Shown here: positions 36,642 to 61,924 of the stretch, piece after piece
Layout: every line of letters starts with the position of its first letter
Position numbering within the stretch: the stretch's first letter is position 1
Assembly: GCA_002316315.1 (NCBI GenBank)
Contig: DCDG01000018.1
Span: 56,074-120,073 of the forward strand
DNA length: 64,000 nucleotides
Direction of reading: 5' to 3'
From: Candidatus Aminicenantes bacterium UBA1061
GTDB taxonomy: Bacteria; Acidobacteriota; Aminicenantia; Aminicenantales; Saccharicenantaceae
The notes under the pieces: model-generated
The model's input: only the letters and a program-made list of their open reading frames with translations
What the model was told of the DNA's origin: nothing
The model's database searches: none
Translations under genes and position numbers: made by a program

Positions 36642-36791
36642 TAACTTTCTCCTTTCTGATGGTTATTTTCTTGACGAGGTCTGAATATGGTTCGTCTTTT
36701 ATTATTACTATAATAATAATGAAACGACTTATTTTCATCGCTGTCAAATATTTTGTGCCACAAGATTAATACACTATATTTTCTCTTTCGG

Positions 36792-37045
36792 TTTAAAAAA
36801 TCCAGAAAAGGCGCAGTTTATAAGACGGGGACAGCCATCAGACTGAAGCCGCACTTCAGCCCGAAGAAAGCACACCGGCGGCGAACCAAAAGCAAGAGCC
36901 TTCCTCTGGCCAACACCTTTGAGCTACCTGATCTCGCCTTCAAAAAGATAAAAATAAGTCAGCCCTTTGGCTGTCCTGATTTCCCGGGCATCTACTACCC
37001 GCACAGCCAGCTCGACCACTTGTCCGGCAATTCCCTGAGGTGAGC
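36792..37045 (-). repeat. Copy B of the dnaE2 3' terminus (about 250 bp; reading frame kept except for one stop)
   Basis: About 88-90% nucleotide identity to 52653-52920. Minus-strand translation gives ...GQVVELAVRVVDAREIRTAKGLTYFY..., matching the DnaE2 C-terminus. Confidence 0.8.
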
Positions 37046-37124
37046 GATTGGGAGAAGCGGCCTTCAGCTTAGAGCTAATGGTAAGCTATCTCCTGGGCCG
37101 TTCAGCATCTTTTTAGCCTCTAAC

Positions 37125-38339
37125 TTATTGATTATGAATGATATCCGCTGGCCCGACCCCATTTATCGAATAAACATTCAACTTGTCAGCTGTATTGGAA
37201 AGACAGATCCGGCTAAGCTGCTTCATGACCTCAAGATCATAATTTTCAATATAAGCTATATATAGCCTGCCATCCATTATCTGAGCCAGATTGTATCTGA
37301 TAAAATTGAAATAACAGGCCTGGCCGAGCTGGCTAAAATTCAGATCGTAGACATCTACAATGTATCTCTTTTTATCATCACGCTGGCCAGTCCAGACATA
37401 TATTTTCCCATCATCAATGTTCAGGCCAAAAATTGCCGGAAAATAGCGTGAGGGCCCTTTTAGTTCCTGTAAGATACGTTCAGAATTTGGGAAACGGATG
37501 ATCTTCATGTCATTGTCAAAGACATTAAAATCCTGCTCCGTAATGAGTTCCTTCTTTATTTTCTTCCCTTTAAAGGTTTTAACCAGCTTTCCATCTTTAG
37601 AATACTTATAAACCAGATAGTCAAAACTATCAGTTATATAAATATTCCCGGCTTCATCCAGAGCAAAATCTGGGATAAAGGTGGCAATGGAGCTCCCATG
37701 GCCTTCTTTTTGTTCGTAAATTAATTGGCTATGATTTCTCTGGCTATCGTATTTATAGATTAATATCTTCTTCTCCTCATTCCCGCCTAAAAGATAAAGA
37801 TTCCCTTCGCGGTCAAAACTAATTTTGTCAATGAATAAACCAGATAGGTTTGCTGGAAGACGTAGTTCATTTTTAAAATGGCCATCCGCTGTAAATATTT
37901 CCAGAGGCCGCCCAAAACTTGAGCTTACCCAGATATCGCCCTGGGGATCAACTGCCAGACAGCCGATGGCTTGAAATTCACCCGGGCCCTGACCCTTTCT
38001 ACCAAAGGAGAATAAGAAATTCCCATTTTTATCATAGGCATCTATTTGCTCACCTCTCACTTTATCCCAGGCGAAAATAAGACCGTTTTCAACGGCGAAA
38101 TAACCAATCCAGGTATAATAATGACCGGATCCCTCATCGCCGATGGTAAAAAGGGGCTGGCTCGAGGCAGCTAATGACCTTATCTCTGCTTTCTGACTGG
38201 AACAACCAGCAGCCAAAAGTAAAGCCATAAAGAAAATGATTATCTCAGGTATAATGGCTAAACTTTTTTCCCGACACCAGGCGCACAAATCAAGCAGTCT
38301 ATGACCAGGTCTGAAAGTATCGGAAATTAGTTCAATCAT
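37125..38339 (-). CDS. NHL-repeat / 6-bladed beta-propeller lipoprotein, paralog 1 (start probably the internal Met at about 38228, giving MALLLAAGCSS)
   Basis: Carries the GRKGQGPGEF signature followed by ...D..G.IWV..., which is NHL-like. Has a lipobox. It is one of 7 paralogs in this window. Confidence 0.7.
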   Translation of the reverse strand: MIELISDTFRPGHRLLDLCAWCREKSLAIIPEIIIFFMALLLAAGCSSQKAEIRSLAASSQPLFTIGDEGSGHYYTWIGYFAVENGLIFAWDKVRGEQIDAYDKNGNFLFSFGRKGQGPGEFQAIGCLAVDPQGDIWVSSSFGRPLEIFTADGHFKNELRLPANLSGLFIDKISFDREGNLYLLGGNEEKKILIYKYDSQRNHSQLIYEQKEGHGSSIATFIPDFALDEAGNIYITDSFDYLVYKYSKDGKLVKTFKGKKIKKELITEQDFNVFDNDMKIIRFPNSERILQELKGPSRYFPAIFGLNIDDGKIYVWTGQRDDKKRYIVDVYDLNFSQLGQACYFNFIRYNLAQIMDGRLYIAYIENYDLEVMKQLSRICLSNTADKLNVYSINGVGPADIIHNQ

Positions 38340-38517
38340 CAGCTGCTCTCCTATTTAGCTTCAGTTTAAAGAAATGAAACCTTTCCTTTTTAGCCTTGAA
38401 AAGATTATAACAATTTCTCTAGCAATAATTAAAGAGTTTCTGACGGTTTCATTGAAAATTGAAAAGTGAATTGATTATAAACGACATGTGCTGGTCTGAC
38501 CCCATTTAGAGGGACTT

Positions 38518-39645
38518 TTAATCAGGGATCTTCCAGCGGGCAGCCAGGCATTTAGCGCTCTGCGGGGCATTTTTCGGGTCATCAACCTGGTAATAAAGGG
38601 TGACAATCTGCCCCCTATCCACTTCAACCGAGCTTGGATACCCGCAGTCAGTATTTGGTGCTGAGGCGGAAATTATAATCTTTTTATCCCACTCCCAGGT
38701 TTTCCCGCCGTCCCGGCTGAAGATAGCCCGAACTCCCATCGGCGCATTACGCTCCCCATAGCTCAAGAGAGTCTGTCCATTTTTGAGCTGTATAAGATCT
38801 GCCGGATGCTCCATGTCCTGGGTTATCTGGAAGGGCGGCGACCAGTGCTTACCCCCATCTTCAGAACGGCTCACAGCTAAATGCCCGCCTTTCTCCGAGC
38901 GCATAGCCGCCAGTAAACTGCCATCGGGGAGGGCCAGCACAGCTGTTTCATTAAAATGCTCACCAACAAGAGAAGGCTCTCCCCAGGTTTTCCCGCCGTC
39001 TTTTGAACGAAAGACGTAGCTTTGATTTCCGCGGTCGTCAAAAAAATCAAAATAGACTGCCATGATAACTGTGCCATCCTCGAGCTGGATAATCTTTCCA
39101 TAAGGCGAGACGGCCCCGCGGCCAGCATAAAATGAATGAATCTCCAGGCTCAGTTCAGGTTTCGTCCAGGTTTTTCCCTTGTCTTTTGAACGGATGACAT
39201 AAACGCCATCGAAAACCCATTTCGAGACGTCTTCAGGAAGTCTTTGCCCGTCAGCCTCATATCCGCTGAGGACAGCATAGGCCAGAAGAATTGTGCCATC
39301 AGCCAGTTGACCAAGTGCCGGGTTACGGTCGTCTTCTGGACCGTCAACAACCGTCCAGGGTTTGGACCAGGTTCGGCCGCCATCATCAGATATGACCAGA
39401 TCAAGGCGCCCGGCCCGGCTAAGGTGAGCGCCGCCACCCCTGATAACAGCCAGAATTTCGCCAGTTGATAGCTTGACCGCCACTGGAAAATAGCCTCCTC
39501 CTTCGACTGCCGTCACCTGATCCATTGAAGTGAAGGCCGCCATGCTGATACAACACATCAGTCCGGTGAGACTCAGAACCGCCAGCCACCGCCGGCCCCA
39601 CCTGTTATTCTTCTTGCTCTTCATTTCCTTTATTTCTTTTATCAT
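38518..39645 (-). CDS. BNR/Asp-box repeat protein (sialidase-superfamily beta-propeller), secreted
   Basis: Five S-x-D-x-G-x-T-W Asp-box motifs (SDDGGRTW, SKDKGKTW, SKDGGKTW, SEDGGKHW, SRDGGKTW). The N-terminus has RR followed by a hydrophobic stretch, which may be a Tat signal. Confidence 0.7.
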   Translation of the reverse strand: MIKEIKEMKSKKNNRWGRRWLAVLSLTGLMCCISMAAFTSMDQVTAVEGGGYFPVAVKLSTGEILAVIRGGGAHLSRAGRLDLVISDDGGRTWSKPWTVVDGPEDDRNPALGQLADGTILLAYAVLSGYEADGQRLPEDVSKWVFDGVYVIRSKDKGKTWTKPELSLEIHSFYAGRGAVSPYGKIIQLEDGTVIMAVYFDFFDDRGNQSYVFRSKDGGKTWGEPSLVGEHFNETAVLALPDGSLLAAMRSEKGGHLAVSRSEDGGKHWSPPFQITQDMEHPADLIQLKNGQTLLSYGERNAPMGVRAIFSRDGGKTWEWDKKIIISASAPNTDCGYPSSVEVDRGQIVTLYYQVDDPKNAPQSAKCLAARWKIPD

Positions 39646-39901: not shown

Positions 39902-40200
39902 TTCAAAAATGAACTTATTAGGGTGATAAAAAAGTGTGAAGGAAGGCGCAGTTTATAAGGCGGGGGCAGCTGTCAGACTGAAGCCGCACTTCAGCCCGAA
40001 GAAAGCACACCGGAGGTGAGCTAAAAGCCAGGGCCTTCTTCTGACCTACGCCCTCAACCTGCCCGCTCTCATCTTCGAAAAGACAAAAATAAGTCAAGCC
40101 GCGCGATGTTCTGATTTCCCGGGTATCCATTACCGGGATAGCTAGCTCGGTCATCTGACGGCACAATTCCTTGAGATGTTCGATCCGCAGCGGCGGACAC
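39902..40200 (-). repeat. Copy C of the dnaE2 3' terminus (about 300 bp; ORF 39918-40217 intact)
   Basis: Encodes ...REIRTSRGLTYFCLFEDESGQVEGVGQKKALAFSSPPVCFLRAEVRLQSDSCPRLINCAFL, which is 85-90% identical to the DnaE2 C-terminus. Confidence 0.8.
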
Positions 40201-40353
40201 CAGCGAGCCCTAAGCAAACTGCTAGCTATCCTACGCCGACTTATTTTTCTTTAAGCCATTATCTTATTGATTATTAACAAATTGTGTTAGCCCAACCCGC
40301 ATTTAAATATATAAGCTCCTCCCCTACAGCACAGGGGCCGGCACCAGCAATTG

Positions 40354-41526: not shown

Positions 41527-41541
41527 TTTAAAATGGCTGCC

Positions 41542-42531
41542 TTATTTAGAGCGACCTGCGATAAAAGGCATCATAAATAAGCCCGGGTCCATTCCTTCTT
41601 CTTCCTTTTTCTTCTTTATAGCTCTTATGTCACTTTTAGTGAGTGCTCCTCCGCTGGATTCAGTATCTTCAACTGGATTAAGTTCTGTAACCTTTTTGTT
41701 TTCTATCTTGCCCATAACATAAAGACAATAGGGGTTGTTTGGTGCTTTTTCCAAAGCTAACTTAGCATAGTTCTCAGCCTCATCAATTTTCCCGGCTTTA
41801 AGAAGGGTAAAAGCTAAGGAATAAAGATATCTGGTGTTTTCTGATTTTGAAAGAGCTTCTTTCCAATAATACTCTGACTCCTGATATTTTCCCCTCCTGA
41901 AGAAGGCAGTCGCCAGGTCGCGGAAATACACTTCATTATCCTTATACTTGCTTTCCAGACCAGAGTCATCTTTTAAGGCAATCATTGACCAATTCTCTTC
42001 CTCCCCTGAGGTCCATAACTCTAAAAAATCTTTCTCTTTGACAAAAATATTTTTCCCTAAAAGAGGATCAGCTAAGACAATCGAGTCCTTTTGGTATCCA
42101 ACCACCAGTCGGTAATGTCCTTTATCGATTTCTTTTGAAGCTTTCTGAAAAACCACCACCGGAACTCCCTTTGAGATTAGCTCCTTTAAATCATTCAAAT
42201 TACCCTTAAAAGAATATGACTTCAGCCCTTTTGATTGAGGATAAAAAACCATCTCAGAGAGCTTCATCACTTTTTCCTTTTCGTCAAAAACTCTGGCAGC
42301 AACCATTTCCTGTTTTTCATCTAAGCCATAAAAATGAAGCATCATCTGCAAAACCGCTGGCCCGCACCACCCGTTTTTCTCCTGCTTATAAAATTTCATG
42401 TTTTTTATAACATTGGCTTTTTTAGGAATGGATTCAGCCTGATAGAAATAGGTATGAGAGGCACATGAAGAAAAAACGCTTATCACAAAGATTAGTAGCA
42501 AATTTTTTAGCCTTTTGTTTTTACCTTTCAT
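41542..42531 (-). CDS. Lipoprotein with a C39-like papain-fold peptidase domain (Peptidase_C39_2 type) and C-terminal TPR repeats
   Basis: Lipobox VFSSC. Candidate catalytic Cys in NGWCGPA and candidate His in KGHYRLVVGY. TPR-like repeats follow (YWKEALSKSEN..., AENYAKLALEKAPNNPY). It lies directly upstream of NHL paralog 2 on the same strand, separated by 15 bp. Confidence 0.55.
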   Translation of the reverse strand: MKGKNKRLKNLLLIFVISVFSSCASHTYFYQAESIPKKANVIKNMKFYKQEKNGWCGPAVLQMMLHFYGLDEKQEMVAARVFDEKEKVMKLSEMVFYPQSKGLKSYSFKGNLNDLKELISKGVPVVVFQKASKEIDKGHYRLVVGYQKDSIVLADPLLGKNIFVKEKDFLELWTSGEEENWSMIALKDDSGLESKYKDNEVYFRDLATAFFRRGKYQESEYYWKEALSKSENTRYLYSLAFTLLKAGKIDEAENYAKLALEKAPNNPYCLYVMGKIENKKVTELNPVEDTESSGGALTKSDIRAIKKKKEEEGMDPGLFMMPFIAGRSK

Positions 42532-42968: not shown

Positions 42969-43064
42969 GTATAAGTTTACAAATAACTCAGTATATACAT
43001 ATATACCATAATTACGATGAGCTTTTAAATGAGTCGGCAGGGTTAGCTAGAAGAGCAGTAAGGT

Positions 43065-43318
43065 TTAAAAGCTATGGAGAAAGGCACAGTTTATAAGGCG
43101 GGGGTAGCCGTCAGACTGAAGCCGCACTTCCCCTCTAAGAAAGCACACCGGAGGCGAGCCAAAAGCCAGAGCCTTCCTCTGCCCCACGCCCTCAACCTGC
43201 CCGCTTTCATCTTCAAAAAGATAAAAATAAGTCAGGCCGCGCGACGTTCTGATTTCCCGGGCATCTACTACCCGGACAGCCAGCTCAACCACCTGTCCGG
43301 CAATTCCCTGAGGTGAGC
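43065..43318 (-). repeat. Copy D of the dnaE2 3' terminus (ORF 43065-43292 intact)
   Basis: Encodes MVELAVRVVDAREIRTSRGLTYFYLFEDESGQVEGVGQRKALAFGSPPVCFLRGEVRLQSDGYPRLINCAFL. About 90% nucleotide identity to the dnaE2 3' end. Confidence 0.8.
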
Positions 43319-43438
43319 GATTGGGAGAAGCGGCCTTCAGCTTAGAGCTAATGGTAAGCTATCTCCTGGGCCGTTCAGCATCTTTTTAGCCTCTAACTTA
43401 TTGATTATGAATGATATCCGCTGGCCCGACCCCATTTA

Positions 43439-43716
43439 GATGGCAGGTTGAAAGATAACCCGGCAGCCAGATCTTTTGACCTTCACCTTGATTTCATGAT
43501 ACTTGCCGTCCCAGCTTTCCGGAACAGGATAACCAAGAACGTAATAGGCACCGGTCAGAGTCTCAATTTTCTCAATATGGTCGGGAGCAGCATAGATTGT
43601 CCCGGTGTACTGACCTCCAGTCTTCCAGGCTATCTCTCGAAGAGAAACGGTTCCCCTTGGATGAATAGATTCCTGAATTATTAGATATGTATTATCTTCC
43701 GTATCAACCGGAAAGC
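43439..43716 (-). pseudogene. Fragment (about 280 bp) of a VWA-like gene paralog, homologous to 47237-47516
   Basis: About 88% nucleotide identity to the C-terminal coding part of the 46807-48468 gene. No start codon, and it is fused directly to other repeat fragments. Confidence 0.65.
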
Positions 43717-44039: not shown

Positions 44040-45023
44040 ATGATGAAAGCTACTAGCCTTACCCACAAGGACAAATTGTGTTTTCTTCAGGGTTCTGTTA
44101 AGAAGCGCAAAACATGTGCGATTGGACTGATAGCCGTGCTGTATATTCTTACTCTTATGTCATGTGTATCACCAAAACCGTCCGACAAGACAAATATTCT
44201 GCCTGAATTTGTGGCAGCCGCTTATGGAGATAAAAATCTAGTTTCTAAGGAGTTGCGCGGCTGCACGTTCGTAATTTTTATCAATTCTACAGAGACCTAT
44301 CACATCGATCTCCTCGAGAAAGTATACAGAGATTATTCAGACGACGTCAATATTATCGCTTTTGTTGGCCAAATTTCCCTTCTCCCACTCTTGCACGACA
44401 GATTCCCGAGAGCCTGGATCATAGATGATAGCCAACAACTTTTCGTTGAAAAGTTTGATGCTAGATCTTGTTGCGGCCGATTTTTCATCTATGATTCGAG
44501 CAAACAATTAATCGCAGCTGGGAACAATACAGTATTCTATGAAGAAGGAACTAGATCAATTTTACAAAGAACCGTGGACCATATCAGTTTCGATATTTCA
44601 GTTCTGATACCCGAACAGAGCGTATCAGATAGTCCCGTGTTTCGAGAATTATGGGATCGATTACGTGTCCAAGAAAAGAGTACATATGTAATATTTATGC
44701 TGTCTGATATTTGTGGCTCCTGCCCCGTTGCCAAGACAATTTCGGAATTGTCAGCAGCATTAATCAGGCAACTAGATACCATTGGAGTAGCATTTCTCTT
44801 CTCGTCAGATTTTTCAGATATCGATATCCGGAACTTCAAAGTAAAATGGTCAGTTCCCTGGCCGTGTATACGTGCCGATGGCGATCTGGCTCTTAAATGG
44901 AATGATTTAATTCATGATTTTAGTCGAGAAGAACTGAATCAGATCCTTCTGCTTGTGGATTCGAGAGGAAAGTTGCTGGCCATAAACCAGGCCGCTTTTA
45001 AGAAACTGGTAGAGGTGAAATAA
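44040..45023 (+). CDS. Tandem thioredoxin-fold (TlpA/redoxin-like) lipoprotein
   Basis: Lipobox LTLMSC. The second domain carries CxxC (DICGSCP). The first domain is redoxin-like with a single Cys (RGCTF). It is separated by 1 bp from the downstream NHL paralog 3. Confidence 0.55.
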   Translation: MMKATSLTHKDKLCFLQGSVKKRKTCAIGLIAVLYILTLMSCVSPKPSDKTNILPEFVAAAYGDKNLVSKELRGCTFVIFINSTETYHIDLLEKVYRDYSDDVNIIAFVGQISLLPLLHDRFPRAWIIDDSQQLFVEKFDARSCCGRFFIYDSSKQLIAAGNNTVFYEEGTRSILQRTVDHISFDISVLIPEQSVSDSPVFRELWDRLRVQEKSTYVIFMLSDICGSCPVAKTISELSAALIRQLDTIGVAFLFSSDFSDIDIRNFKVKWSVPWPCIRADGDLALKWNDLIHDFSREELNQILLLVDSRGKLLAINQAAFKKLVEVK

Positions 45024-45024
45024 G

Positions 45025-49911: not shown

Positions 49912-50030
49912 ACCATCTTCTCTTCTGAACTCCATTGTCTAAGCTTCATCCTGACACCTCCTTACTCAGTATAATCTCTATCTCTTTGAGGTGTCCACCT
50001 CCTCAGGGGGTCAGTATAACCTCTTATACT
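49912..50030 (-). mobile_element. Solo left-end remnant of the IS3-family element (inverted repeat, 5' UTR and first ~12 codons of orfA)
   Basis: About 90% identical to 59950-60070. The reverse complement begins ATGAAGCTTAGACAATGGAGTTCAGAAG, encoding MKLRQWSSE as in orfA at 59993. Confidence 0.7.
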
Positions 50031-55508: not shown

Positions 55509-56764
55509 CTGGTAAGAGAAGCAGTTTTCAGGATAAAGCCGCGGCCTTTATCTTCCTGATAAACCTCACCCAGCATTTTTTCCCGGCCGGTTAGAACCGC
55601 AGTAAAGCCGTATCTCTCACGCACCCGGTCAAGAGCCTGAGAGAGGCGTTCATCTTTTTCCTGGTAAAACTCAAAAAGAGAAAGATGGCGCTCCTCGACC
55701 AGCCGGCTGCCTTTAACCCCGACTAGACGAAGAGCCAGGCGCGATTTATCCCACAGGTCCAAAAACAATTCCTCCGCCGCGCGGTAAATCCGGTTCATCT
55801 CCTGGACCGGCATGGACAGAAACCGGCGTTTGCTGACTGTCTTAAAATCCGAGTAGCGGGCTTTAACCTCAATCACCTGGGCATAAAATTTTTCCTGCCG
55901 TAAGGCGAGGGCCAGCCGGTCAGAAAGATAAGCTAAATGAGCCAGCAGGAGATCCCGGTCCCAGACATCCTGAAGAAAGGTAGTCTCCCGGGAGAAAGAT
56001 TCGGACTTCCCCCGGGTTTGAAGCGGACGGTAATCTATGCCCCGGGAGAGAAGATAAAGTTCATCGCCCATCACGCCGAACAAAGAACGCAGGGTGGCCA
56101 GCGGCAGCCGCCAGAGATCAGCTATTTTATGGACATTGAGCAGCCGGAGCATCACCTGGGCTTTAGGGCCAATACCTGGAATGGCGGAAATATCCAGCTC
56201 GCGCAAAAATTCTTCTTCCTCACCCGGCTGAAGCTCAAAGAAACCGCCCGGCTTGGCTCGCCTGGTGGCCAATTTGGCTAAGATTTTGTTGGAAGCCGCC
56301 CCAACCGAAACGCTCAGACCAACTTCCCTCTCTACCCGGCGTTTTATGTCCTTGGCCACCTCTGTAAAAGAAGAATATAGCTGACCGCAGCGGGTAAACT
56401 CTAAGTAGGCCTCATCCAGCGAAGCTTCTTCCACATCAGGTGTATAGTCATGGAGAATCTGGAAGAATTTCTCAGAAAAAGACTGATAGAGATGATAATT
56501 ACCCCGGACAAAAATCGCCTGAGGGCATAGTTTATAACACTCGCGAAGAGGCATACCGGAATGAACGCCATATTTGCGGGCCTCATAGGAGCAAGTAGCG
56601 GCTACCCCTCTTTCGTGCGGCAGGCCACCGACCACCAGCGGTTTACCCTTGAGGGAAGGATTGAGCAGCGCCTCCACCGAGGCAAAAAAAGCGTCGAGGT
56701 CAATATGGACGATATAACGCCTTTTTTGACAGTTGGAAAACTGAGCACCTGGTAACCGCATCAT
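55505..56764 (-). CDS. dinB: Y-family DNA polymerase (DinB/Pol IV-like; sits in the ImuB position of the cassette)
   Basis: HIDLDAFFASVE and SLDEAYLE retain the catalytic Asp/Glu residues of Pol IV. SVGAASNKILAKLA is also present. Confidence 0.7.
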   Translation of the reverse strand: MMRLPGAQFSNCQKRRYIVHIDLDAFFASVEALLNPSLKGKPLVVGGLPHERGVAATCSYEARKYGVHSGMPLRECYKLCPQAIFVRGNYHLYQSFSEKFFQILHDYTPDVEEASLDEAYLEFTRCGQLYSSFTEVAKDIKRRVEREVGLSVSVGAASNKILAKLATRRAKPGGFFELQPGEEEEFLRELDISAIPGIGPKAQVMLRLLNVHKIADLWRLPLATLRSLFGVMGDELYLLSRGIDYRPLQTRGKSESFSRETTFLQDVWDRDLLLAHLAYLSDRLALALRQEKFYAQVIEVKARYSDFKTVSKRRFLSMPVQEMNRIYRAAEELFLDLWDKSRLALRLVGVKGSRLVEERHLSLFEFYQEKDERLSQALDRVRERYGFTAVLTGREKMLGEVYQEDKGRGFILKTASLTR

Positions 56765-56784
56765 TTTCCCCTGATTTTAAAGAC

Positions 56785-57411
56785 TTAATATTTTCGAATC
56801 ACACCGGCTACCCGGCCGATGATCCGGACTTCCTTAACTTCGATCGGCTTAAAGGCCGGATTTTCTGGAACCAGCAGCACCCGGTCTTTTTCCCGGCGAA
56901 GGCGTTTTAGAGTTACTGTGCCATCTTCAAGAAGAGCTACGACCATCTCGCCCGAATTAGCTGTTTCTGCCCTTTCTATGACCACTAAATCACCGTCATC
57001 AATGTAGGCATCAATCATGCTTTTACCGGTCACTTTCAGGCAGAAAAGATTGCCACTTTTCCGCCCGGCGAACCAGGCCGGAACCTCAACGCTCTCGCCC
57101 AGGGTATCAAACATCTCACGCGGGCTACCGGCTGGAACAAGGCCAACTAAGGGAAGGCGCAACTGCTGGACAGCATCCGGCAGATAAGTGAGCCGCAACT
57201 CGCCGCCTTCTCTCCTTAAGTAACCTTTCTTTTCCAGGCTGAGGAGGTGTTTAAAAACAGCCGAGGGGTTGGCGAGGCCGGTCATCTGCCCTATTTCCCT
57301 CACCGTTGGGGCATAGCCATGGTCAAGGATAAAATCCTGGATTTTATCCAGAATTTCCTTCTGCCTTCGAGTCAGTGTCCTTTTAATTCTGTTAACCAAT
57401 TTGTTCACCAT
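56785..57411 (-). CDS. lexA: LexA repressor (S24 peptidase)
   Basis: Winged-helix N-terminus. The C-terminal S24 domain has the Ser-Lys dyad (GKSM ... K). 208 aa, placed directly upstream of dinB and dnaE2. Confidence 0.8.
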   Translation of the reverse strand: MVNKLVNRIKRTLTRRQKEILDKIQDFILDHGYAPTVREIGQMTGLANPSAVFKHLLSLEKKGYLRREGGELRLTYLPDAVQQLRLPLVGLVPAGSPREMFDTLGESVEVPAWFAGRKSGNLFCLKVTGKSMIDAYIDDGDLVVIERAETANSGEMVVALLEDGTVTLKRLRREKDRVLLVPENPAFKPIEVKEVRIIGRVAGVIRKY

Positions 57412-57607: not shown

Positions 57608-58681
57608 ATGAAGAAGAAGAGAGTCTTTAAATTTCTGGTCATATTATTTCTCGTGGTATTTATTTACAGTGCCATATCAATACAGAAAGGAGAAGGCCAA
57701 CCTGTAGAAGTACAACAGGTAAGTGTAATCAAAAACATAGGTGAAGGAATTTATGGTCAGAAAATCAAAGACAAGATTAAATTTATAAAAGTTCTTAGCT
57801 TAGGCGCTGAAGCTGATAACGCTCCTGATTATCTTATGTTCGGGAGAAACATCAACGTTGAAATTGATCAGGGGCAAAACCTGTTTGTTCTTGATGAGCA
57901 AAATAGCAGGCTGATGAAATTTGATCAGAATGGTCGATTCCTCTGGAAAGCAAGTAGAAAAGGACAGGGACCTGGAGAAATAGAAGCTCCATTTGGGATG
58001 AAGTTAACAGAGGATGGTGGGATAGCCATAATAGATCAAGGAGGCAAGATCAACTATTTTGATGGAAATGGGAATTTTTTAAAACTGGTTAGAATGGCCA
58101 AAGAAATAAAATCTATAATCTCATTTTCGAAAGGAAAAATATTTGCCAACTTGTTTATACACGGTCAACCAGGTATAACGGCAGCCTGGTTTTCTGAAAA
58201 TGGAGAGCTTATTGATTATTTTCCTGTTGAATATTATTACGGTCCGAAACTATCCGGACGGCTAGCATATGACCTGGGTGCTAAATTCATACTCGGAGGA
58301 GATCAACTTTATTTGAGCCTTCCAGATAAGTATGAAATACAAATCTATTCCTTGAAAGGGCAGTTATTGAGGAGAGTTATCAGAGATGTAAAAATAAGGC
58401 CTCCATTTCTGGAAGAGGGCTACCGATTCGTAGTGAAAGATATATCGGGTCCGGCCCAATTAATTTCCAATGGATTCCTGATTAACGAACTGTCTCTGGA
58501 TGCGTGGACAGAGGCTGGAAAAAAATATATTGATTTTTTTAATAAGGATTTCCAGTTTCTCGGTTCTTATCCTGTTCCCAAAAATGCTTATTTAGCCAGA
58601 GTTGATAAAGACGATAATTTTTATTTTGTCGAGATTGATTCCTGGGTTAAAATAATCAAGTACAAATTAAAAATCGACTGA
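57608..58681 (+). CDS. NHL-repeat / 6-bladed beta-propeller secreted protein, paralog 6
   Basis: Signature SRKGQGPGEI, N-terminal signal or anchor, 357 aa. Confidence 0.7.
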   Translation: MKKKRVFKFLVILFLVVFIYSAISIQKGEGQPVEVQQVSVIKNIGEGIYGQKIKDKIKFIKVLSLGAEADNAPDYLMFGRNINVEIDQGQNLFVLDEQNSRLMKFDQNGRFLWKASRKGQGPGEIEAPFGMKLTEDGGIAIIDQGGKINYFDGNGNFLKLVRMAKEIKSIISFSKGKIFANLFIHGQPGITAAWFSENGELIDYFPVEYYYGPKLSGRLAYDLGAKFILGGDQLYLSLPDKYEIQIYSLKGQLLRRVIRDVKIRPPFLEEGYRFVVKDISGPAQLISNGFLINELSLDAWTEAGKKYIDFFNKDFQFLGSYPVPKNAYLARVDKDDNFYFVEIDSWVKIIKYKLKID

Positions 58682-58843: not shown

Positions 58844-59692
58844 TCATATTTGAGCTCCTGCCGATGTAGCTTCCTGTGTTTGAGCCCATTGCTGAGTAAA
58901 CTCTTCCGGGCTTAAATACCCCAGAACTGAGTGGACATAGAGCCGATTATAGTCTTCCTCTATCCAGGCACCGATTCTGGCCTCAGCTTCCTCAAAGGAG
59001 CCAAACTCATTTAACCACAGCAGTTCTTCTTTGATGGTCCGTATAACCCTTTCGGTCTCAGCATTACCCCGTGGATTGTCATATGAACAGAAAATCTGAT
59101 TAATATCCAGCCCGGCTGTCTCGGTCATAAAGGCCACCGAGGTTGGCTGCGACCCATTGTCTGAGATAAGATTTAGCCCCTGACCTCTTACTCCACAGGG
59201 AAACTTCCGACACAGTGCCCGGTCCAGTGCTTCTTTCCATTCAGAGGTCTTAGCTCGCAGTGATAGCTCCCAGCCTACTATCTCCTTGGTATACCAGTCC
59301 AGCACCACAACGAGATAACACCAGCCTGAAGAGCCTAAGATAAACTTCGTCATGTCTATTCCCCAGTACTGGTTAGGCCTGGTTGCCTTCGGTTTCCCCC
59401 TCTGGAAACTACGCACTGCTTTATGCCTCACTTGTTCTACCACCAGGCCATTTTCCCTCATCAACCTGTAAACACGCTTCTGATTAACTACAAGACCCTC
59501 CCGATGATTCAGCCAGGCTGTCATCCGTCTGTATCCCCAGAAGGGATGCAATAGCCGAAGCTCCTTGAGCTTCTTCACCACACCCCCATCCTTATCCAAG
59601 CTCCGTCTTTGCCTCTCCTTCCGATACTGCCCGCTCCGGCTTATCCCGAGAGCCTCACAGGCCGATTTCAAGCTCATCCCTCGCTCCCTCAT
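58844..59692 (-). CDS. IS3-family transposase OrfB (DDE integrase core)
   Basis: 282 aa rve-like catalytic domain (..WGIDMTKF..., ..ISDNGSQ..). It lies in the -1 frame relative to orfA. Confidence 0.75.
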   Translation of the reverse strand: MRERGMSLKSACEALGISRSGQYRKERQRRSLDKDGGVVKKLKELRLLHPFWGYRRMTAWLNHREGLVVNQKRVYRLMRENGLVVEQVRHKAVRSFQRGKPKATRPNQYWGIDMTKFILGSSGWCYLVVVLDWYTKEIVGWELSLRAKTSEWKEALDRALCRKFPCGVRGQGLNLISDNGSQPTSVAFMTETAGLDINQIFCSYDNPRGNAETERVIRTIKEELLWLNEFGSFEEAEARIGAWIEEDYNRLYVHSVLGYLSPEEFTQQWAQTQEATSAGAQI

Positions 59693-59714
59693 CAGCTCGA
59701 CTACTTCCCCGAGA

Positions 59715-59993
59715 TTAACTCTTGAGTTTTTTTAAAGCCTCAATCGCCATCGTCTGCCGCCCTATGATCTTCTCCAGTTTCTCTATCTGAGCTTGAAGCA
59801 CCTTCGTTTCATCCTCACTGCCCCCGTTGCTTAATCCCTTCTGACCAGCCTCCAAAAACCTGTCCCGCCACCGATAATACAATGCCTGGCTTATCTGATG
59901 TTCCCGACATATCTCAGCTACCGATTTTTCCCCCTTTAACCCCTCCAGCACTATGGCCATCTTCTCCTCCGAACTCCATTGCCTTAGCTTCAT
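59715..59993 (-). CDS. IS3-family transposase OrfA (HTH)
   Basis: 92 aa. The IS3 OrfA-like sequence ends ...ALKKLKS at the A7 slippery site. Confidence 0.75.
   Translation of the reverse strand: MKLRQWSSEEKMAIVLEGLKGEKSVAEICREHQISQALYYRWRDRFLEAGQKGLSNGGSEDETKVLQAQIEKLEKIIGRQTMAIEALKKLKS
59727..59733 (-). promoter_or_regulatory. A7 slippery heptamer for programmed -1 ribosomal frameshifting (OrfAB fusion)
   Basis: Seven consecutive A on the coding strand at the end of orfA, overlapping the upstream extension of the orfB frame. Confidence 0.6.
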
Positions 59994-60413
59994 CCTGACA
60001 CCTCCTTATTCAGTATAAACTCTATCTCTCAGAGGTGTCCACCTCCTCAGGGGGTCAGTATAAACTCTTGACGGCCCCCCTAAGTTGTCGGCCGAATATT
60101 TTTCATGATTTTCTTCTTGCCCGGAAGGAGATGTCCGGCTGAATTCTGGCGCTTTTGACCTTATCCGGGTATTCTGTGCCCATCTCCGGCCTTTTTTTGC
60201 TCAATTTGACGCCCACGCTTAGTATTTTCTATCATTCCTGCACTGGGGATGGGGCAAAATTGGCGCAGGAGCAACTGTCCGGCCAGCACAGCAGAAAACC
60301 AAATTCTTATCTGTTAATCCATGGCCTTTGGCACTCCTGGAAGTTTCAGCCCGCCAACCTGTCTTAATGATGTTATTCTATCTGTTAGCCCAAGATGCCA
60401 AAAAATTGCCAGC

Positions 60414-61520
60414 TCAAAGATTTAATTTATAGGAGATAATGACAGGATTGGGAAAAGGCTCACCGGACTGAGGCTCTTCCCATTTTTCGACATAAAAAGA
60501 ATTTCCATCAGAGTAGATAATGTTCAAAGATAAGGGAATTCCGCCAGCAAGAAAATTGCCCTCAGTATCAAATATATCAAGATGGTTCTGGAGCTGGACA
60601 AGCAACAGGCTCTTTTCTAAGTAATAGGGGCCATTCAGAACACCTTGCCTCCCTTCCCTTGGTTCGAGCTGCTGAAAATGGGGATTGACGAATGATTTAA
60701 CCAGCTGCCCACCTGAGGTATATTTCCGAATCCGGTAAAATAATGGATTCATTTCATAAATGAAATCGTCCTTATCTATAGCTATTCCATCAGTACCGCA
60801 GGAAAAGAAAAACTTAAAAACTTCTTCAGGAATCGGCGCAAAACTTAAGATTGTCTCCCCATTATTATTGAGCTTTTTAATGGTGTCAAAAATCCAGGGT
60901 TTCTGGAGTCCCATGACAACCGAAGCAGGGACCATTCCTTCATACATAAATATTTCATTTTTATGGTTGACATGTACAAAGTGATACCACTTGCCTTTAG
61001 ATATTATTTGCTTTTTATACTGGTAATTGTGGTCATAAAAGATAAGCCGACTTCCTAGATAGTCGTCTACAAGAATATCCCCTTCCGGGCTTACTTCCAA
61101 ACTCACTGGCGTGGAATATTCCCCTGGTCCCTGACCTTGCCGGCCTAAGTTTTGTATAAAATGCCCGTCTGAACTGAATATCCAGACATTGTTCATACGA
61201 AGCCCGTCGGCTACGATGAAATTTCCCTTTGAGTCCCGGACGAAATCACTGATGGTGCTAATGGCGCTGTTTTCAGTCAGTTCCAGCTGGGTTTCAGCAG
61301 TCTTCGAAAATATGTCTTCGATTTTCCTGGCTGAGGACAAAGCCTTGAGTTCTGATGAGGATAGAGGCGAGTTAGGAGCTTTAGGCTGGCGAGAGCAGCC
61401 CCAGGAGAATAATAAGACTAATGCTATCGATACCAGACAACCTCGATGCCTCATGACCTCCCTCCCTGATGCTCTATTACGATATTCTAATACCATAGTC
61501 AAGCCCCTGTATTGCTTCAC
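60414..61520 (-). CDS. NHL-repeat / 6-bladed beta-propeller lipoprotein, paralog 7 (start probably an internal Met before the lipobox FSWGC)
   Basis: Signature GRQGQGPGEY, lipobox, 368 aa. Confidence 0.7.
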   Translation of the reverse strand: MKQYRGLTMVLEYRNRASGREVMRHRGCLVSIALVLLFSWGCSRQPKAPNSPLSSSELKALSSARKIEDIFSKTAETQLELTENSAISTISDFVRDSKGNFIVADGLRMNNVWIFSSDGHFIQNLGRQGQGPGEYSTPVSLEVSPEGDILVDDYLGSRLIFYDHNYQYKKQIISKGKWYHFVHVNHKNEIFMYEGMVPASVVMGLQKPWIFDTIKKLNNNGETILSFAPIPEEVFKFFFSCGTDGIAIDKDDFIYEMNPLFYRIRKYTSGGQLVKSFVNPHFQQLEPREGRQGVLNGPYYLEKSLLLVQLQNHLDIFDTEGNFLAGGIPLSLNIIYSDGNSFYVEKWEEPQSGEPFPNPVIISYKLNL

Positions 61521-61924
61521 TTGAAATCTACAAGAAACTGATCCGTTGCGTCACGAGAAAATCTACACGAAAACGTTTTGCCTTCTGGCTAAGGATGAAG
61601 CTAAATTCGGTGGTGAGATTAGCCAGGAGGCGAAGCGATGGGTTTAGAGATGAAAGTTAAAAGAGCGGTCTTAAAGGAGATAGCCTGTAAGTATCAGCGG
61701 AGCTCTAAGAAGGGTAAGGGGCAGGTGCTGGAGGGGCTTCTAGGGCTTATAGCTATAACCGCTGTCATGGTAGCTGGTTATTGCGCAACTGTAGTCGGAA
61801 AGTGGTGATGAGGAGGCTCGACGGGGAGCAGGTAATAGTAATTGGGGAGATAAGGAAGATAAAGCGGAGGCGGAAGAAGGTATTGAGGTGGCTTGTAAAC
61901 ATCAAGTACTTTTTCTACTATTTG

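What the first reader, a model, noticed from the sequence alone, without database searches (positions are those of the whole stretch)
36750..61550. Array of seven secreted NHL-repeat/6-bladed propeller lipoprotein paralogs with redox, protease and small-peptide partners
Seven intact paralogs of 357-404 aa are packed into 25 kb (37125, 40354, 45025, 48667, 50961, 57608, 60414). All carry a signal peptide or lipobox and a G-(Q/R)-G-P-G-E-(F/Y/W) NHL-like signature. An eighth copy is decayed at 7.8 kb. Their partner genes are all extracytoplasmic. These are a tandem thioredoxin-fold lipoprotein, a frameshifted second redoxin, a C39-like peptidase/TPR lipoprotein, a BNR sialidase-like propeller, a VWA-like protein, two small Cys-rich secreted peptides and a serpin. 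The combination of a propeller, a thioredoxin, a papain-like peptidase and small secreted peptides recalls the poorly understood Bacteroides clusters of 6-bladed beta-propeller, TlpA-family redoxin and small-peptide genes, and the eukaryotic NHLRC2 fusion of thioredoxin and NHL domains. No biochemical function is known for this combination. It may be an uncharacterised extracytoplasmic peptide or protein maturation or redox system, or a variable surface-protein family.
Basis: partly seen in the sequence, partly recalled or inferred. Interest (0 to 1): 0.85.

Follow-up and report, generated by a model that had tools for sequence, protein, structure and literature searches.

The report
Secreted propeller paralogs with thioredoxin–peptide partners
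Seven distantly related copies of an uncharacterised secreted six-bladed propeller protein are packed beside an SOS-polymerase operon, and two of them belong to conserved three-gene units (propeller, thioredoxin-like protein, small secreted cysteine peptide) that suggest a testable function for a very large family of unknown role.

Summary
Seven intact 357-404 aa paralogs sit at the stated coordinates. Six pass Pfam PF17170 (DUF5128, '6-bladed beta-propeller') and the seventh falls just short. A model of one is a confident NHL-like propeller. The eighth copy at 7.8 kb is a pseudogene, and every partner assignment checked out. The paralogs share 17-36% identity. Orthologues of H and J lie in unrelated neighbourhoods in other Aminicenantes. 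A Pfam census of 150 neighbours in other phyla found no thioredoxin or C39 enrichment. Two sub-modules are conserved and co-diverge. One is tandem-thioredoxin lipoprotein E, propeller F and a 6-Cys peptide. The other is a 2-Cys peptide, propeller J and a membrane-anchored CxPC protein, which is frameshifted here. Similar pairings occur in Ca. Saccharicenans, a Bacteroides and an unclassified bacterium. Most likely these are split Trx+NHL units (compare NHLRC2 and SOQ1) that handle small disulfide peptides. The array lies in a 20 kb island between a decarboxylase gene and dnaE2. Four displaced copies and a 44-nt stub of the dnaE2 3' end cut the island into cassettes, and related strains differ at exactly these repeats.

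The parts
37125..38339 (-). Propeller paralog A (404 aa). Its last ~30 codons read into a displaced dnaE2 3' repeat.
   Evidence: PF17170 39.6 bits. C-terminal extension seen in alignment A2. GQGPGEF at residue 116 and AAGC lipobox-like site.
38518..39645 (-). B, a BNR/sialidase-like propeller with a signal anchor.
   Evidence: PF13088 BNR_2, E 2.8e-32. Kept next to A in the related strain contig L115.
40354..41526 (-). Propeller paralog C (390 aa).
   Evidence: PF17170 40.0 bits. Lies 15 nt downstream of D on the same strand.
41542..42531 (-). D, a C39-like cysteine peptidase plus TPR lipoprotein.
   Evidence: Peptidase_C39_2 at 51.4 bits and C39 at 46.3 bits, both above cutoff, plus TPR_2. 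NF033920 PA2778 family scores 71 bits, below its cutoff of 150. FSSC lipobox.
44040..45023 (+). E, a lipoprotein with two thioredoxin-like halves. Invariant CxxCP in the C-terminal half and invariant vicinal CC in the N-terminal half.
   Evidence: No Pfam or NCBIfam hit. Only 4 homologues in 5.8 billion proteins. Invariant Cys in A6. Model pLDDT 70.8, with CGSC at the start of helix 229-242. Foldseek hits to ResA, TlpA, CcmG and StoA at E ~5e-6 and TMt 0.6-0.7.
45025..46110 (+). Propeller paralog F (361 aa), 1 nt after E.
   Evidence: PF17170 48.4 bits. A DUF5128 gene follows the E-like gene in every E-homologue context.
46238..46450 (+). pepF, a 70-aa secreted peptide whose mature part (~46 aa) has six invariant Cys.
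   Evidence: ORF and signal peptide. Conserved downstream of the propeller in L137 and L139, with all six Cys invariant. Identity to those orthologues is 79% and 56%.
46807..48468 (-). G, a VWA-domain protein of the acidobacterial TIGR03436 type, membrane-anchored.
   Evidence: TIGR03436 136.9 bits against a cutoff of 81.25. An internal 216-nt piece is duplicated at 43444-43659.
48667..49797 (-). Propeller paralog H (376 aa), a probable lipoprotein.
   Evidence: PF17170 55.4 bits. AF2 model pLDDT 91.6, all-beta. Foldseek hits to NHL domains at E 6e-13 and to 4RAA at E 2e-10. Orthologues elsewhere are singletons.
50691..50918 (+). pepJ, a 75-aa secreted peptide with an aromatic-rich mature part ending in YYCxxxxSxCxI.
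   Evidence: ORF. Homologous 62-78 aa ORFs lie upstream of J orthologues in L141, L143 and L145.
50961..52055 (+). Propeller paralog J (364 aa), the most divergent copy.
   Evidence: PF17170 20.4 bits, just under the cutoff of 22.9. 53 orthologue clusters at 48-86% identity, many carrying PF17170.
52052..52550 (+). Membrane-anchored thioredoxin-like gene (CTPC) with a single frameshift near 52190. Its start overlaps the J stop by 4 nt.
   Evidence: Three-frame translation. Intact 148-172 aa orthologues with CxPC follow J orthologues. Thioredoxin_8 match is weak only, E 0.016.
57608..58681 (+). Propeller paralog N (357 aa), divergent from lexA, with no partner gene.
   Evidence: PF17170 33.9 bits. 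GQGPGEI.
60414..61520 (-). Propeller paralog Q (368 aa).
   Evidence: PF17170 54.6 bits. GQGPGEY.
62264..63556 (-). Serpin with a signal peptide, 744 nt upstream of Q.
   Evidence: PF00079, E 7.7e-124.
52653..57411 (-). lexA, Y-family polymerase (IMS) gene and dnaE2 operon. It anchors the island and is not part of the propeller system.
   Evidence: Pfam IMS and DNA_pol3_alpha/PHP. The 208-aa lexA product is read from the sequence. Syntenic with L126 at 76% nt identity.
43057..43443 (-). Displaced copy r43 of the dnaE2 3' end. A truncated piece of G (43444-43659) abuts it.
   Evidence: nhmmer E 4e-135. Alignments A1 and A8.
39916..40313 (-). Displaced copy r39 of the dnaE2 3' end.
   Evidence: nhmmer E 3e-125. 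A1.
36786..37173 (-). Displaced copy r36 of the dnaE2 3' end.
   Evidence: nhmmer E 1e-130. In L127 the junction lies inside this repeat.
32378..32601 (-). The oldest and shortest displaced dnaE2 3' end. It starts 2 nt after the stop of the decarboxylase gene (31120-32376) and marks the far edge of the island.
   Evidence: nhmmer E 5.5e-23. Pfam Orn_Arg_deC for the flanking gene.
38470..38511 (-). 44-nt stub matching the 5' edge of the repeat, between B and A.
   Evidence: Repeat family D4. nhmmer E 8e-4.
7793..8668 (-). Decayed eighth propeller copy (C-like).
   Evidence: tblastn 31% over 226 aa. Two in-frame stops.
58844..59993 (-). Intact IS3-family element (orfA and orfB) between N and Q.
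   Evidence: NF033516, 210 bits. rve and HTH_Tnp_1.
50011..50409 (-). IS481/IS630-like transposase N-terminal fragment. Related IS-end debris lies at 42895-42957 and 49913-50025.
   Evidence: HTH_28/29/32. Repeats I1 and D3.

Best explanation
The seven genes are anciently diverged members of the uncharacterised PF17170 family. These are secreted or lipid-anchored six-bladed propellers whose first two blades are canonical NHL repeats. They are not one pathway. At least two belong to self-contained, co-inherited three-gene units: E (tandem Trx-like lipoprotein), F (propeller) and pepF (6-Cys peptide); and pepJ (2-Cys peptide), J (propeller) and a membrane-anchored CxPC Trx-like protein. In these units the propeller most likely acts as the peptide-binding platform. 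The thioredoxin-fold partner would form, reduce or reshuffle the disulfides of the co-encoded Sec-exported peptide outside the cytoplasm. This would be a split-gene counterpart of the fused Trx-like+NHL proteins NHLRC2 and SOQ1. The other five propellers (A, C, H, N, Q) are probably binding modules that work with other partners or alone. The physical clustering has a separate cause. About 20 kb was inserted between a decarboxylase gene and dnaE2, and it is cut into cassettes by displaced copies of the dnaE2 3' end. Recombination at these repeats adds, deletes and shuffles cassettes between strains. Shown: fold, family, gene order, conservation and co-divergence of the trios, the repeats, and strain differences at the repeats. 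Inferred: peptide binding by the propeller, the peptide as the redox substrate, and how the cassettes were acquired.
For: Family and fold: PF17170 passes for 6 of 7. NHL domains of Thin, TRIM71 and Brat match residues 76-154 at E 3e-16 to 1e-4. The H model has pLDDT 91.6 and matches NHL propellers and 4RAA/BF0058. The paralogs are old, at 17-36% identity. Trio 1: E has only 4 homologues, and all of them (100-42% identity) are followed by a DUF5128 gene and then a 70-72 aa peptide with six invariant Cys. The three genes co-diverge: E 66/43%, F 74/50%, pepF 79/56%. The E model is two Trx-like halves with CGSC at a helix N-terminus and matches ResA/TlpA/CcmG. Trio 2: in three independent contexts (P0034, P0069, P0056) a pepJ homologue precedes the J orthologue. 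In two of them a 148-172 aa TM-anchored CxPC protein follows, with overlapping stop and start. Identities are pepJ 62/49/50% and J 59/54/51%. F and J are among the most dissimilar paralogs, so the pairing recurs in two deep lineages. Further instances: L126 has dnaE2, then a 150-aa TM CxxC protein homologous to the E C-terminal half, then a propeller. L025 (Bacteroides) has a propeller, then a CxxC lipoprotein, then an S26 signal peptidase. L021 has a MauE+rhodanese protein, a 187-aa protein, a 6-Cys peptide and a propeller. A heuristic census found TM/CxxC proteins same-strand adjacent in 5/108 cases against 4/455 in the background (Fisher p 0.016). The propellers carry no conserved Cys, so the peptide is the likelier redox substrate. 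Trx-like+NHL cooperation is documented for NHLRC2 (PMC6107167) and SOQ1 (bioRxiv 10.1101/2024.11.01.621559). Island: five same-strand copies of the dnaE2 3' end (true gene end plus four displaced) and a 44-nt stub. The repeat has a sharp 5' edge with a different upstream sequence at each copy. L115 has the order G-B-A. L127 lacks 37166-43438, with its junction inside the repeat. L129 switches from 87% to 99% identity at r36. Six or more independent assemblies reproduce the window's order.
Against: Only 2 of 7 paralogs have a Trx or peptide partner here, and the J-linked redoxin is frameshifted in this window. The frameshift could be a pseudogene or a homopolymer sequencing error. The Trx assignment for the J partner rests on size, the CxPC motif and weak hits (Thioredoxin_8 E 0.016; PDB thioredoxins E 0.4-0.5). 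The E model is only moderately confident (pLDDT 70.8; the other four models score 40-53). The Pfam census of 150 neighbours in other phyla shows no thioredoxin family, and arrays of up to six propellers occur with no partner genes (L084, L044). Family-wide invariant residues are nearly all glycines, so there is no evidence for or against catalysis. No binding, expression or redox data exist. For the island there is no integrase gene and no empty-site relative, and the L127 variant comes from a 3x-coverage assembly and could be a mis-join across the 100-nt identical part of the repeat.
Confidence: 0.45

Rival explanations
1. Bacteriocin and immunity reading. pepF and pepJ are Sec-exported, disulfide-stabilised antimicrobial peptides. 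The Trx-like proteins are their dedicated disulfide-forming accessory factors, as in some Gram-positive bacteriocin loci (own knowledge: BdbA/BdbB in the sublancin operon). The propeller lipoproteins are immunity or decoy proteins that bind the peptide at the cell surface. The partner-less propellers (A, C, H, N, Q, and arrays elsewhere) are orphan immunity genes collected in a variable island.
For: The gene order peptide then propeller matches the usual structural-gene then immunity-gene order. The trios are compact, co-inherited and found in different genomic contexts. The E family is extremely rare (4 homologues). An ABC ATPase and a large membrane protein follow the J trio in L141. Partner-less tandem arrays of up to six copies exist. 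The window's copies sit in a strain-variable island with IS elements.
Against: The peptides match no bacteriocin family in Pfam or NCBIfam. The J trio is widespread in Aminicenantes at 48-86% identity, which resembles vertical inheritance more than the patchy spread typical of bacteriocins. H orthologues sit in a stable, conserved chromosomal neighbourhood. No PADLOC or conflict-system signal was found. No propeller-fold immunity protein for a peptide bacteriocin is known to me.
Confidence: 0.2
2. Incidental clustering of unrelated surface proteins. The propellers are diversified surface or periplasmic ligand-binding lipoproteins (nutrient capture, adhesion) that function alone. Neighbouring redox, protease and peptide genes are just other secreted-protein genes gathered into the same island.
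For: H orthologues are singletons. The neighbour census is heterogeneous, with 136 Pfam families among 150 neighbours. No C39, BNR or VWA neighbour turned up in the surveyed loci, and a serpin appeared near a propeller only once, non-adjacent. The island also carries an M64 peptidase, a BNR protein, a VWA protein and a serpin, all secreted. The surface propeller lipoprotein BT2095, which binds cobalamin, appears among the fold matches.
Against: This reading cannot explain the strict conservation, tight spacing (1-nt gap, 4-nt overlap) and parallel divergence of the two trios across 42-66% identity and across changing genomic contexts. It also cannot explain recurrence of the propeller plus CxxC pairing in L126, L025 and L021.
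Confidence: 0.25
3. The whole 25 kb (seven propellers plus Trx, C39 peptidase, BNR, VWA, peptides and serpin) is a single extracytoplasmic peptide or protein maturation system.
For: All the listed partners are predicted to be exported. D lies 15 nt upstream of C on the same strand.
Against: The interval is interrupted by an SOS polymerase operon, an intact IS3 and IS debris, and genes lie on both strands. Closely related strains lack or reorder A-D. Orthologues of individual members are dispersed in other genomes.
Confidence: 0.05

Closest known systems
Pfam PF17170 (DUF5128, '6-bladed beta-propeller'); structural-genomics structure 4RAA (BF0058, Bacteroides fragilis)
   Same: Six paralogs score above the family threshold. 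They have the same size (~360-400 aa), are exported, and the model matches 4RAA.
   Different: The family has no assigned function, and the searchable library holds no paper naming the Pfam entry. The window's copies are acidobacterial and only 10-17% identical to solved relatives.
Eukaryotic and bacterial NHLRC2, and plant SOQ1 (fused thioredoxin-like + NHL propeller)
   Same: A thioredoxin-fold CxxC module is coupled to an NHL-type six-bladed propeller and acts outside the cytoplasm or in a lumen. The SOQ1 Trx domain passes electrons onward to act on a protein substrate (bioRxiv 10.1101/2024.11.01.621559). NHLRC2 structure: PMC6107167.
   Different: Here the two modules are separate genes. 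The CxxC motifs are CGSC and CxPC, not the CC(I/V)NC motif. There is no SOQ1-type C-terminal domain. A small Cys peptide is co-encoded. Only the first two blades of the propeller keep NHL sequence motifs. SOQ1 is only a marginal sequence hit (E 0.2). The NHLRC2 paper reports no conserved neighbours for bacterial NHLRC2 homologues.
TlpA/ResA/CcmG/StoA-type extracytoplasmic thiol-disulfide oxidoreductases
   Same: E's halves have the TlpA-like fold, with CxxC at the N-terminus of helix 1, and the protein is lipid- or membrane-anchored.
   Different: E is a tandem of two such folds, and the first half lacks CxxC and has an invariant vicinal CC. No sequence-profile match reaches significance. There is no link to cytochrome maturation genes.
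Prophage-like elements that integrate into the 3' end of a protein-coding gene and carry a replacement 3' end (own knowledge: e14 and phage 21 in E. coli icd, leaving a displaced icd 3' pseudogene)
   Same: Same-strand partial copies of the target gene's 3' end, each ending at the stop codon, lie downstream of an intact gene. The copy furthest from the gene abuts the original flank.
   Different: There are four displaced copies in series and a 44-nt stub. No integrase or phage genes are present. The cargo consists of secreted-protein genes. Three copies share an extra ~100-nt 5' part that matches the current dnaE2 only weakly. No empty site was observed.
Bacteroides clusters of a 6-bladed propeller with a TlpA-like protein
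   Same: One sampled Bacteroides locus (L025) has a propeller lipoprotein followed, with overlapping stop and start, by a CxxC lipoprotein.
   Different: That locus continues with an S26 signal peptidase and a Wzy_C/TPR membrane protein, and has no small peptide. No NVEALA-motif ORF occurs in any locus examined.

Membership tests
Pfam PF17170 (DUF5128, 6-bladed beta-propeller) | Whole-protein score at or above the Pfam gathering threshold (22.9 bits) | tested here: met
   A 39.6, C 40.0, F 48.4, H 55.4, N 33.9 and Q 54.6 bits. J scores 20.4, just below, but many J orthologues are annotated PF17170.
Pfam PF17170 (DUF5128, 6-bladed beta-propeller) | Six-bladed propeller fold like 4RAA (BF0058) | tested here: met
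   The H model has pLDDT 91.6 and is all-beta. Foldseek gives 4RAA E 2e-10 with TMq 0.53, and NHL domains E 6e-13 with TMt up to 0.70. Only H was modelled.
NHL repeat family (TRIM-NHL type) | NHL sequence repeats recognisable in the blades | tested here: inconclusive
   phmmer against PDB NHL domains gives E 3e-16 to 1e-4, but only over residues ~61-154, about two blades. The profile search hits multi-NHL giants through profile positions 60-155 only. Pfam NHL is not among the hits for the window proteins. Only one blade keeps the GxGPGE(F/Y/W) motif.
TlpA/ResA-type thiol-disulfide oxidoreductase (gene E) | Thioredoxin fold with CxxC at the N-terminus of the first helix | tested here: met
   In the C-terminal half, invariant C225-x-x-C228-P sits at the start of helix 229-242. 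Foldseek gives ResA, TlpA-like, CcmG and StoA at E 5e-6 to 7e-5. The N-terminal half has the fold pattern but no CxxC.
TlpA/ResA-type thiol-disulfide oxidoreductase (gene E) | Sequence-profile membership (Pfam Redoxin/AhpC-TSA/Thioredoxin_8 or NCBIfam) | tested here: not met
   No family at E <= 0.01 in Pfam or NCBIfam. A profile against PDB sequences gave nothing significant.
Thioredoxin-like (J-linked 52052-52550 gene) | Thioredoxin fold or profile match plus CxxC | tested here: inconclusive
   CxPC is invariant in three orthologues. Thioredoxin_8 scores E 0.016, below cutoff. PDB thioredoxin-family chains score E 0.4-0.5. The gene is frameshifted in the window.
Peptidase C39 (gene D) | Pfam C39/C39_2 above threshold and catalytic Cys and His motifs | tested here: met
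   C39_2 51.4 bits (cutoff 24) and C39 46.3 bits (cutoff 22). The GWCGPA and GHYRLVV motifs are read from the sequence.
NCBIfam NF033920 (PA2778 family cysteine peptidase; gene D) | Score at or above the curated cutoff (150 bits) | tested here: not met
   71.2 bits.
NHLRC2/SOQ1 | Trx-like and NHL propeller fused in one polypeptide | tested here: not met
   They are separate adjacent genes (E/F with a 1-nt gap; J/redoxin with a 4-nt overlap).
NHLRC2/SOQ1 | CC(I/V)NC active-site motif (PMC6107167) | tested here: not met
   The motifs here are CGSC in E and CTPC/CSPC/CPPC in the J partner.
Integrative element targeting a gene 3' end (e14/icd type) | Displaced same-strand copies of the target gene's 3' end bounding the inserted DNA | tested here: met
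   Four displaced copies and a stub, each ending at the position of the dnaE2 stop codon.
Integrative element targeting a gene 3' end (e14/icd type) | Integrase or recombinase gene inside the element next to the junction | tested here: not met
   None among the annotated ORFs in 32.4-52.65 kb; only an IS481-like HTH fragment and IS debris.
Integrative element targeting a gene 3' end (e14/icd type) | Relatives with an empty site (dnaE2 directly next to the flank gene) | not testable with these tools
   The single metagenome scan was lost to a tool error. A look-up by the flank gene returned only the same species, with contigs breaking at the repeats.
TIGR03436 (acidobacterial VWA domain; gene G) | Score at or above the curated cutoff | tested here: met
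   136.9 bits against 81.25.

The most novel reading that the evidence does not exclude
The propeller, Trx-like protein and small Cys peptide trios are a previously unrecognised, widespread class of extracytoplasmic peptide-handling modules. A PF17170 propeller would be the substrate-holding subunit of a dedicated thiol-disulfide oxidoreductase that matures a Sec-exported disulfide peptide (a signal, toxin or inhibitor). That would give the first functional handle on DUF5128 and a bacterial split-gene model for the unknown substrate logic of NHLRC2. In addition, the dnaE2 3' end would serve as a reusable recombination site that collects such cassettes.
Probability: 0.2. Interest if true: 0.75.

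Novelty: new variant of a known kind. Interest (0 to 1): 0.5.

Why it matters
The H-lineage and window-paralog profile matches about 15,600 cluster representatives at E <= 1e-30 and about 152,000 at E <= 1e-3. The top-scoring matches are giant multi-NHL proteins hit only through the two NHL blades, so these counts cover the wider NHL superfamily and not only PF17170. PF17170 itself has no known function and no literature in the searchable library. Two conserved, compact three-gene units tie a propeller to a thiol-disulfide oxidoreductase and a small Cys peptide. They give a concrete hypothesis that can be tested in a heterologous host with three small genes. They also echo the fused Trx+NHL architecture of NHLRC2, a human disease gene whose substrate is unknown, and of SOQ1. 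Separately, serial displaced dnaE2 3' ends that delimit strain-variable cassettes are an unusual record of how an island of secreted-protein genes was built next to an SOS mutagenesis operon. If the clustering is only island accretion, and the trios are just one of many partnerships of a generic binding fold, the finding is a useful annotation but not a new system.

Tried and rejected
A DNA pattern for FGxxGQGPGE was used instead.
2. phmmer of the window's partner proteins against ORFs of loci L007-L126 found matches only in the near-identical strain L115, a serpin in L117, a marginal VWA hit in L008, and dnaE2 in L126.
3. The Pfam census of 150 immediate neighbours showed no Trx or C39 enrichment. 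It is blind to Trx-like proteins as divergent as E, so it was supplemented by a TM+CxxC heuristic and jackhmmer.
5. An exact look-up of the dnaE2 product found nothing.
6. Literature searches for DUF5128, NVEALA, PF17170, Aminicenantes with beta-propeller, and dnaE2 integration sites found nothing relevant.
7. PADLOC gave no hits.
8. Rfam and tRNA scans found only two tRNA-Ser genes outside the region, so this is not a tRNA-targeted island.
9. Promoter and terminator scans did not exceed shuffled expectation. The 14-nt core of the motif shared upstream of pepJ and N is not significant on its own.
10. Profile searches of E and of the J-linked redoxin against PDB sequences were not significant.
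11. Recent tandem duplication as the origin of the array was rejected, because pairwise identity is 17-36%.
12. An enzyme active site could not be inferred, because the family-wide invariant residues are nearly all glycines.

Full report
OBSERVATION. ORF listing and translation confirm seven intact genes of 357-404 aa at the stated coordinates: A 37125, C 40354, F 45025, H 48667, J 50961, N 57608 and Q 60414. Pfam assigns PF17170 (DUF5128, '6-bladed beta-propeller') above its gathering score to six. J scores 20.4 against 22.9 bits, but many of its orthologues are annotated PF17170. NCBIfam gives only sub-threshold similarity to the NHL protein ScyF. The GQGPGE(F/Y/W) signature is exact in five copies; N has GQGPGEI and J has GPGPDEF. 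All seven have N-terminal hydrophobic segments, and several have lipobox-like sites. The paralogs are old, at 17-36% identity over partial alignments. The eighth copy is real. Region 7808-8452(-) matches the C-terminal 226 residues of C at 31% identity, and its frame carries a signal peptide, two in-frame stops and no signature blade.

PARTNERS. B is a BNR_2 propeller, D is a C39/C39_2 peptidase plus TPR lipoprotein, R is a serpin, and G passes TIGR03436. E has no profile hit. Its alignment shows an invariant CxxCP and an invariant vicinal CC. Its AF2 model (pLDDT 70.8) has two beta-alpha-beta halves, with CGSC at a helix N-terminus. Foldseek places it with ResA, TlpA-like, CcmG and StoA oxidoreductases at E ~5e-6. 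The second redoxin (52052-52550) has a TM anchor, a CTPC motif and one frameshift. The two small peptides are real ORFs with signal peptides: 46238-46450 with 6 Cys and 50691-50918 with 2 Cys.

FOLD AND FAMILY. H matches the NHL domains of Thin, TRIM71, TRIM2/3 and Brat by sequence over residues ~61-154 (E 3e-16 to 1e-4). Its model (pLDDT 91.6) is an all-beta propeller. That model matches NHL domains (E 6e-13, TMt up to 0.70) and 4RAA, the B. fragilis BF0058 structural-genomics protein (E 2e-10). A profile of H-lineage and window paralogs hits about 152,000 cluster representatives at E <= 1e-3 and about 15,600 at E <= 1e-30. The top hits are giant multi-NHL proteins matched only through profile positions ~60-155, while ~380-400 aa proteins match end to end. 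So the first two blades are canonical NHL repeats and the rest is family-specific. No paper in the searchable library names the Pfam entry.

IS THE ARRAY ONE SYSTEM? No. Orthologues of H (59-61% identity) in long contigs of other Aminicenantes are single genes in a different, conserved neighbourhood (DUF5916 protein, H, a 138-aa ORF, an S46 peptidase). That neighbourhood shares no other gene with the window. A DNA-pattern scan of one genome per species returned 120 loci from Aminicenantes and other Acidobacteriota, Gemmatimonadota, Rhodothermales, Longimicrobiales, Planctomycetota, Eubacteriales, KSB1 and a few Bacteroidales. Of these, 114 contain a propeller hit and 30 contain two to six copies within 8 kb, some with no other genes in between (L084, L044, L068). 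Tandem arrays are therefore a family habit. A Pfam scan of 150 immediate neighbours gave 136 different families. The commonest were multihaem cytochromes (6/150), and no thioredoxin or C39 family was among the 25 commonest. Among the window's listed partners, only the serpin turned up near a propeller in the surveyed loci, once and non-adjacent.

TWO CONSERVED TRIOS. E is extremely rare, with four homologues in 5.8 billion proteins. In every context, down to 42% identity, it is followed by a DUF5128 gene and then a 70-72 aa ORF. That peptide keeps all six Cys (LKCSSL..CGDW..CP.RG.E.Q.CVLDC..G.IVFCPG). The three genes diverge in parallel: E 66/43%, F 74/50%, pepF 79/56%. J has 53 orthologue clusters at 48-86% identity. 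In three independent contexts a pepJ homologue (62-78 aa, C-terminal YYCxxxxSxCxI) precedes the J orthologue. In two of them a 148-172 aa TM-anchored protein with invariant CxPC follows, with overlapping stop and start. The surrounding genes differ each time, so the trio moves as a unit. F and J are among the least similar paralogs, so a propeller, Trx-like protein and Cys-peptide unit exists in two deep lineages. More instances turned up. In Ca. Saccharicenans SKW99 (L126), dnaE2 is followed by a 150-aa TM protein with FCRPC that is homologous to E's C-terminal half (jackhmmer 7e-20), and this abuts a propeller gene. A Bacteroides MAG (L025) has a propeller lipoprotein, then a CxxC lipoprotein, then an S26 signal peptidase and a Wzy_C/TPR protein. 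An unclassified bacterium (L021) has a MauE+rhodanese membrane protein, a 187-aa protein, a 69-aa 6-Cys peptide and a propeller. A crude heuristic (TM segment plus CxxC, 100-350 aa, same strand, gap under 200 nt) is met by 5/108 adjacent genes against 4/455 others (Fisher p 0.016). For small Cys peptides the figures are 5/108 against 8/455 (p 0.08).

MECHANISM (INFERRED). The propellers have no conserved cysteines, whereas the peptides do. The likeliest substrate of the Trx-fold partner is therefore the co-encoded peptide. The propeller would act as the binding platform, a role NHL propellers play for RNA or protein ligands in the matched structures. Fused Trx-like+NHL proteins set a precedent for the two folds cooperating. 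NHLRC2 has this architecture in animals and bacteria (PMC6107167). In SOQ1 the lumenal Trx-like domain supplies electrons for action on the protein LCNP (bioRxiv 10.1101/2024.11.01.621559). The window's units differ in four ways: they are split genes, the motifs are CGSC and CxPC, there is no SOQ1-type C-terminal domain, and there is a dedicated small peptide. A bacteriocin-plus-immunity reading, in which the peptide is the toxin, the Trx protein is the folding factor and the propeller gives immunity, fits the gene order, the mobility, the ABC genes in L141 and the partner-less arrays. It fits less well with the broad, roughly vertical spread of the J trio and with the absence of any bacteriocin-family match. 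I cannot separate these two readings with the tools available.

WHY THE GENES ARE PACKED HERE. The last ~395 nt of dnaE2 occur five times on the same strand. One is the true gene end (52650-53043). The displaced copies are at 43057-43443, 39916-40313, 36786-37173 and 32378-32601 (230 nt). A 44-nt stub lies at 38470-38511. Every copy ends at the position of the dnaE2 stop codon. The furthest copy starts 2 nt after the stop of the decarboxylase gene at 31120-32376. This implies that the ~20 kb in between, which holds Z (an M64 peptidase), A, B, C, D, E, F, pepF, G, H, pepJ, J and the redoxin, was inserted into an originally convergent decarboxylase/dnaE2 junction. The 5' edge of the repeat is sharp (TAAATGGGG) and is preceded by a different sequence in each copy: the end of A, whose ORF reads ~30 codons into the repeat; a truncated internal piece of G; or the sequence downstream of C. 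Related strains differ exactly at these repeats. L115 (91-95% identity) has the order repeat-G-stub-B-A-repeat, without C, D, E or F. L127 is 100% identical but lacks 37166-43438 (A-D), with its junction inside the repeat. L129 switches from 87% to 99% identity at r36. At least six independent assemblies reproduce the window's order, so the window itself is not chimeric. Large contigs of the same species tend to end at these repeats. The pattern resembles elements that integrate into a gene's 3' end and bring a replacement end (own knowledge: e14 in icd). However, the island contains no integrase and I could not find an empty site. Serial site-specific integration and Campbell-type homologous recombination therefore both remain possible. 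L127 has 3x coverage and could be a mis-join across the ~100 nt that r36 and r43 share exactly.

VERDICT. The seven genes are new members of a known but uncharacterised family. The conserved trios are a new variant of the Trx+NHL theme and the most useful lead. The array as a whole is a product of island accretion, not a single system. Interest is moderate at 0.5. The trios give a cheap experimental route into a very large DUF and a possible model for NHLRC2-type proteins. The function remains inferred, and only two of the seven paralogs are covered.

Noticed in passing
window 52650-53043, 43057-43443, 39916-40313, 36786-37173, 32378-32601, 38470-38511 (all - strand): The 3' end of dnaE2 is present five times, plus a 44-nt stub. 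The copies cut a ~20 kb insertion between a decarboxylase gene and dnaE2 into cassettes. Strain variants L115, L127 and L129 break exactly at these repeats, and no integrase is present.
   Followed up: partly
window 43444-43659 vs 47247-47462: A 216-nt internal piece of the VWA gene G (92% identical) is duplicated and fused directly to the 5' edge of repeat r43. This is a relic of a rearrangement that truncated a second G copy.
   Followed up: partly
window 37125-37215 (3' end of A): The A ORF extends ~30 codons beyond the end of its paralogs, reading into the displaced dnaE2 fragment. Its C-terminus is therefore repeat-derived sequence.
   Followed up: partly
window 50577-50617 and 57510-57550: A shared 41-nt motif (…CTGAATGAGAAAAA…TTGACA) lies upstream of pepJ-J and of N, in the lexA-N divergent intergenic region. 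It may be a common promoter or operator. The 14-nt core alone is not statistically unusual.
   Followed up: partly
L025:224-4508 (Bacteroides sp. MAG CALULP010000033.1): A propeller lipoprotein, a CxxC lipoprotein, an S26 signal peptidase and a Wzy_C/TPR membrane protein lie in one tightly overlapping operon.
   Followed up: partly
L021:1-2653 (MAG JANQEH010000260.1): A MauE+rhodanese membrane protein, a 187-aa TM protein, a 69-aa six-Cys secreted peptide and a propeller lipoprotein lie on one strand. This is another redox, peptide and propeller arrangement in an unrelated lineage.
   Followed up: partly
L007-L119 (neighbour set A4): Multihaem cytochromes (Paired_CXXCH_1, Cytochrome_C7) are the commonest Pfam families next to motif-bearing propeller genes in other phyla (6 of 150 neighbours).
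   Followed up: no
L141:7622-10142: In one Aminicenantes lineage the pepJ-J-redoxin trio is followed by an ABC ATPase and a 578-aa membrane protein with no Pfam hit. These could be an export or immunity pair.
   Followed up: no
window 42895-42957 / 50412-50474, and 49913-50025 / 59957-60069: IS-end debris. A 63-nt inverted pair flanks the IS481-like fragment, and a 113-nt direct repeat (92%) links the region downstream of that fragment to the left end of the intact IS3.
   Followed up: no
window 42521-42709 (-): A 62-aa ORF overlaps the start of the C39 peptidase gene D by 11 nt. It is called as a gene in public assemblies and has no signal peptide. Whether it is a real leader-type peptide substrate for D was not resolved.
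   Followed up: no
window 36786-39916 and 39916-43057: The two cassettes A+B and C+D have almost identical lengths (repeat start-to-start spacing 3135 and 3138 nt) although B and D are unrelated folds. This may be coincidence or a constraint on cassette size.
   Followed up: no
L117:1555-6641 (Longimicrobiales OZ246950.1): A serpin homologous to R (E 8e-66) lies within 3 kb of a propeller gene in a distant phylum. It is the only recurrence of the serpin-propeller proximity in 114 loci.
   Followed up: no
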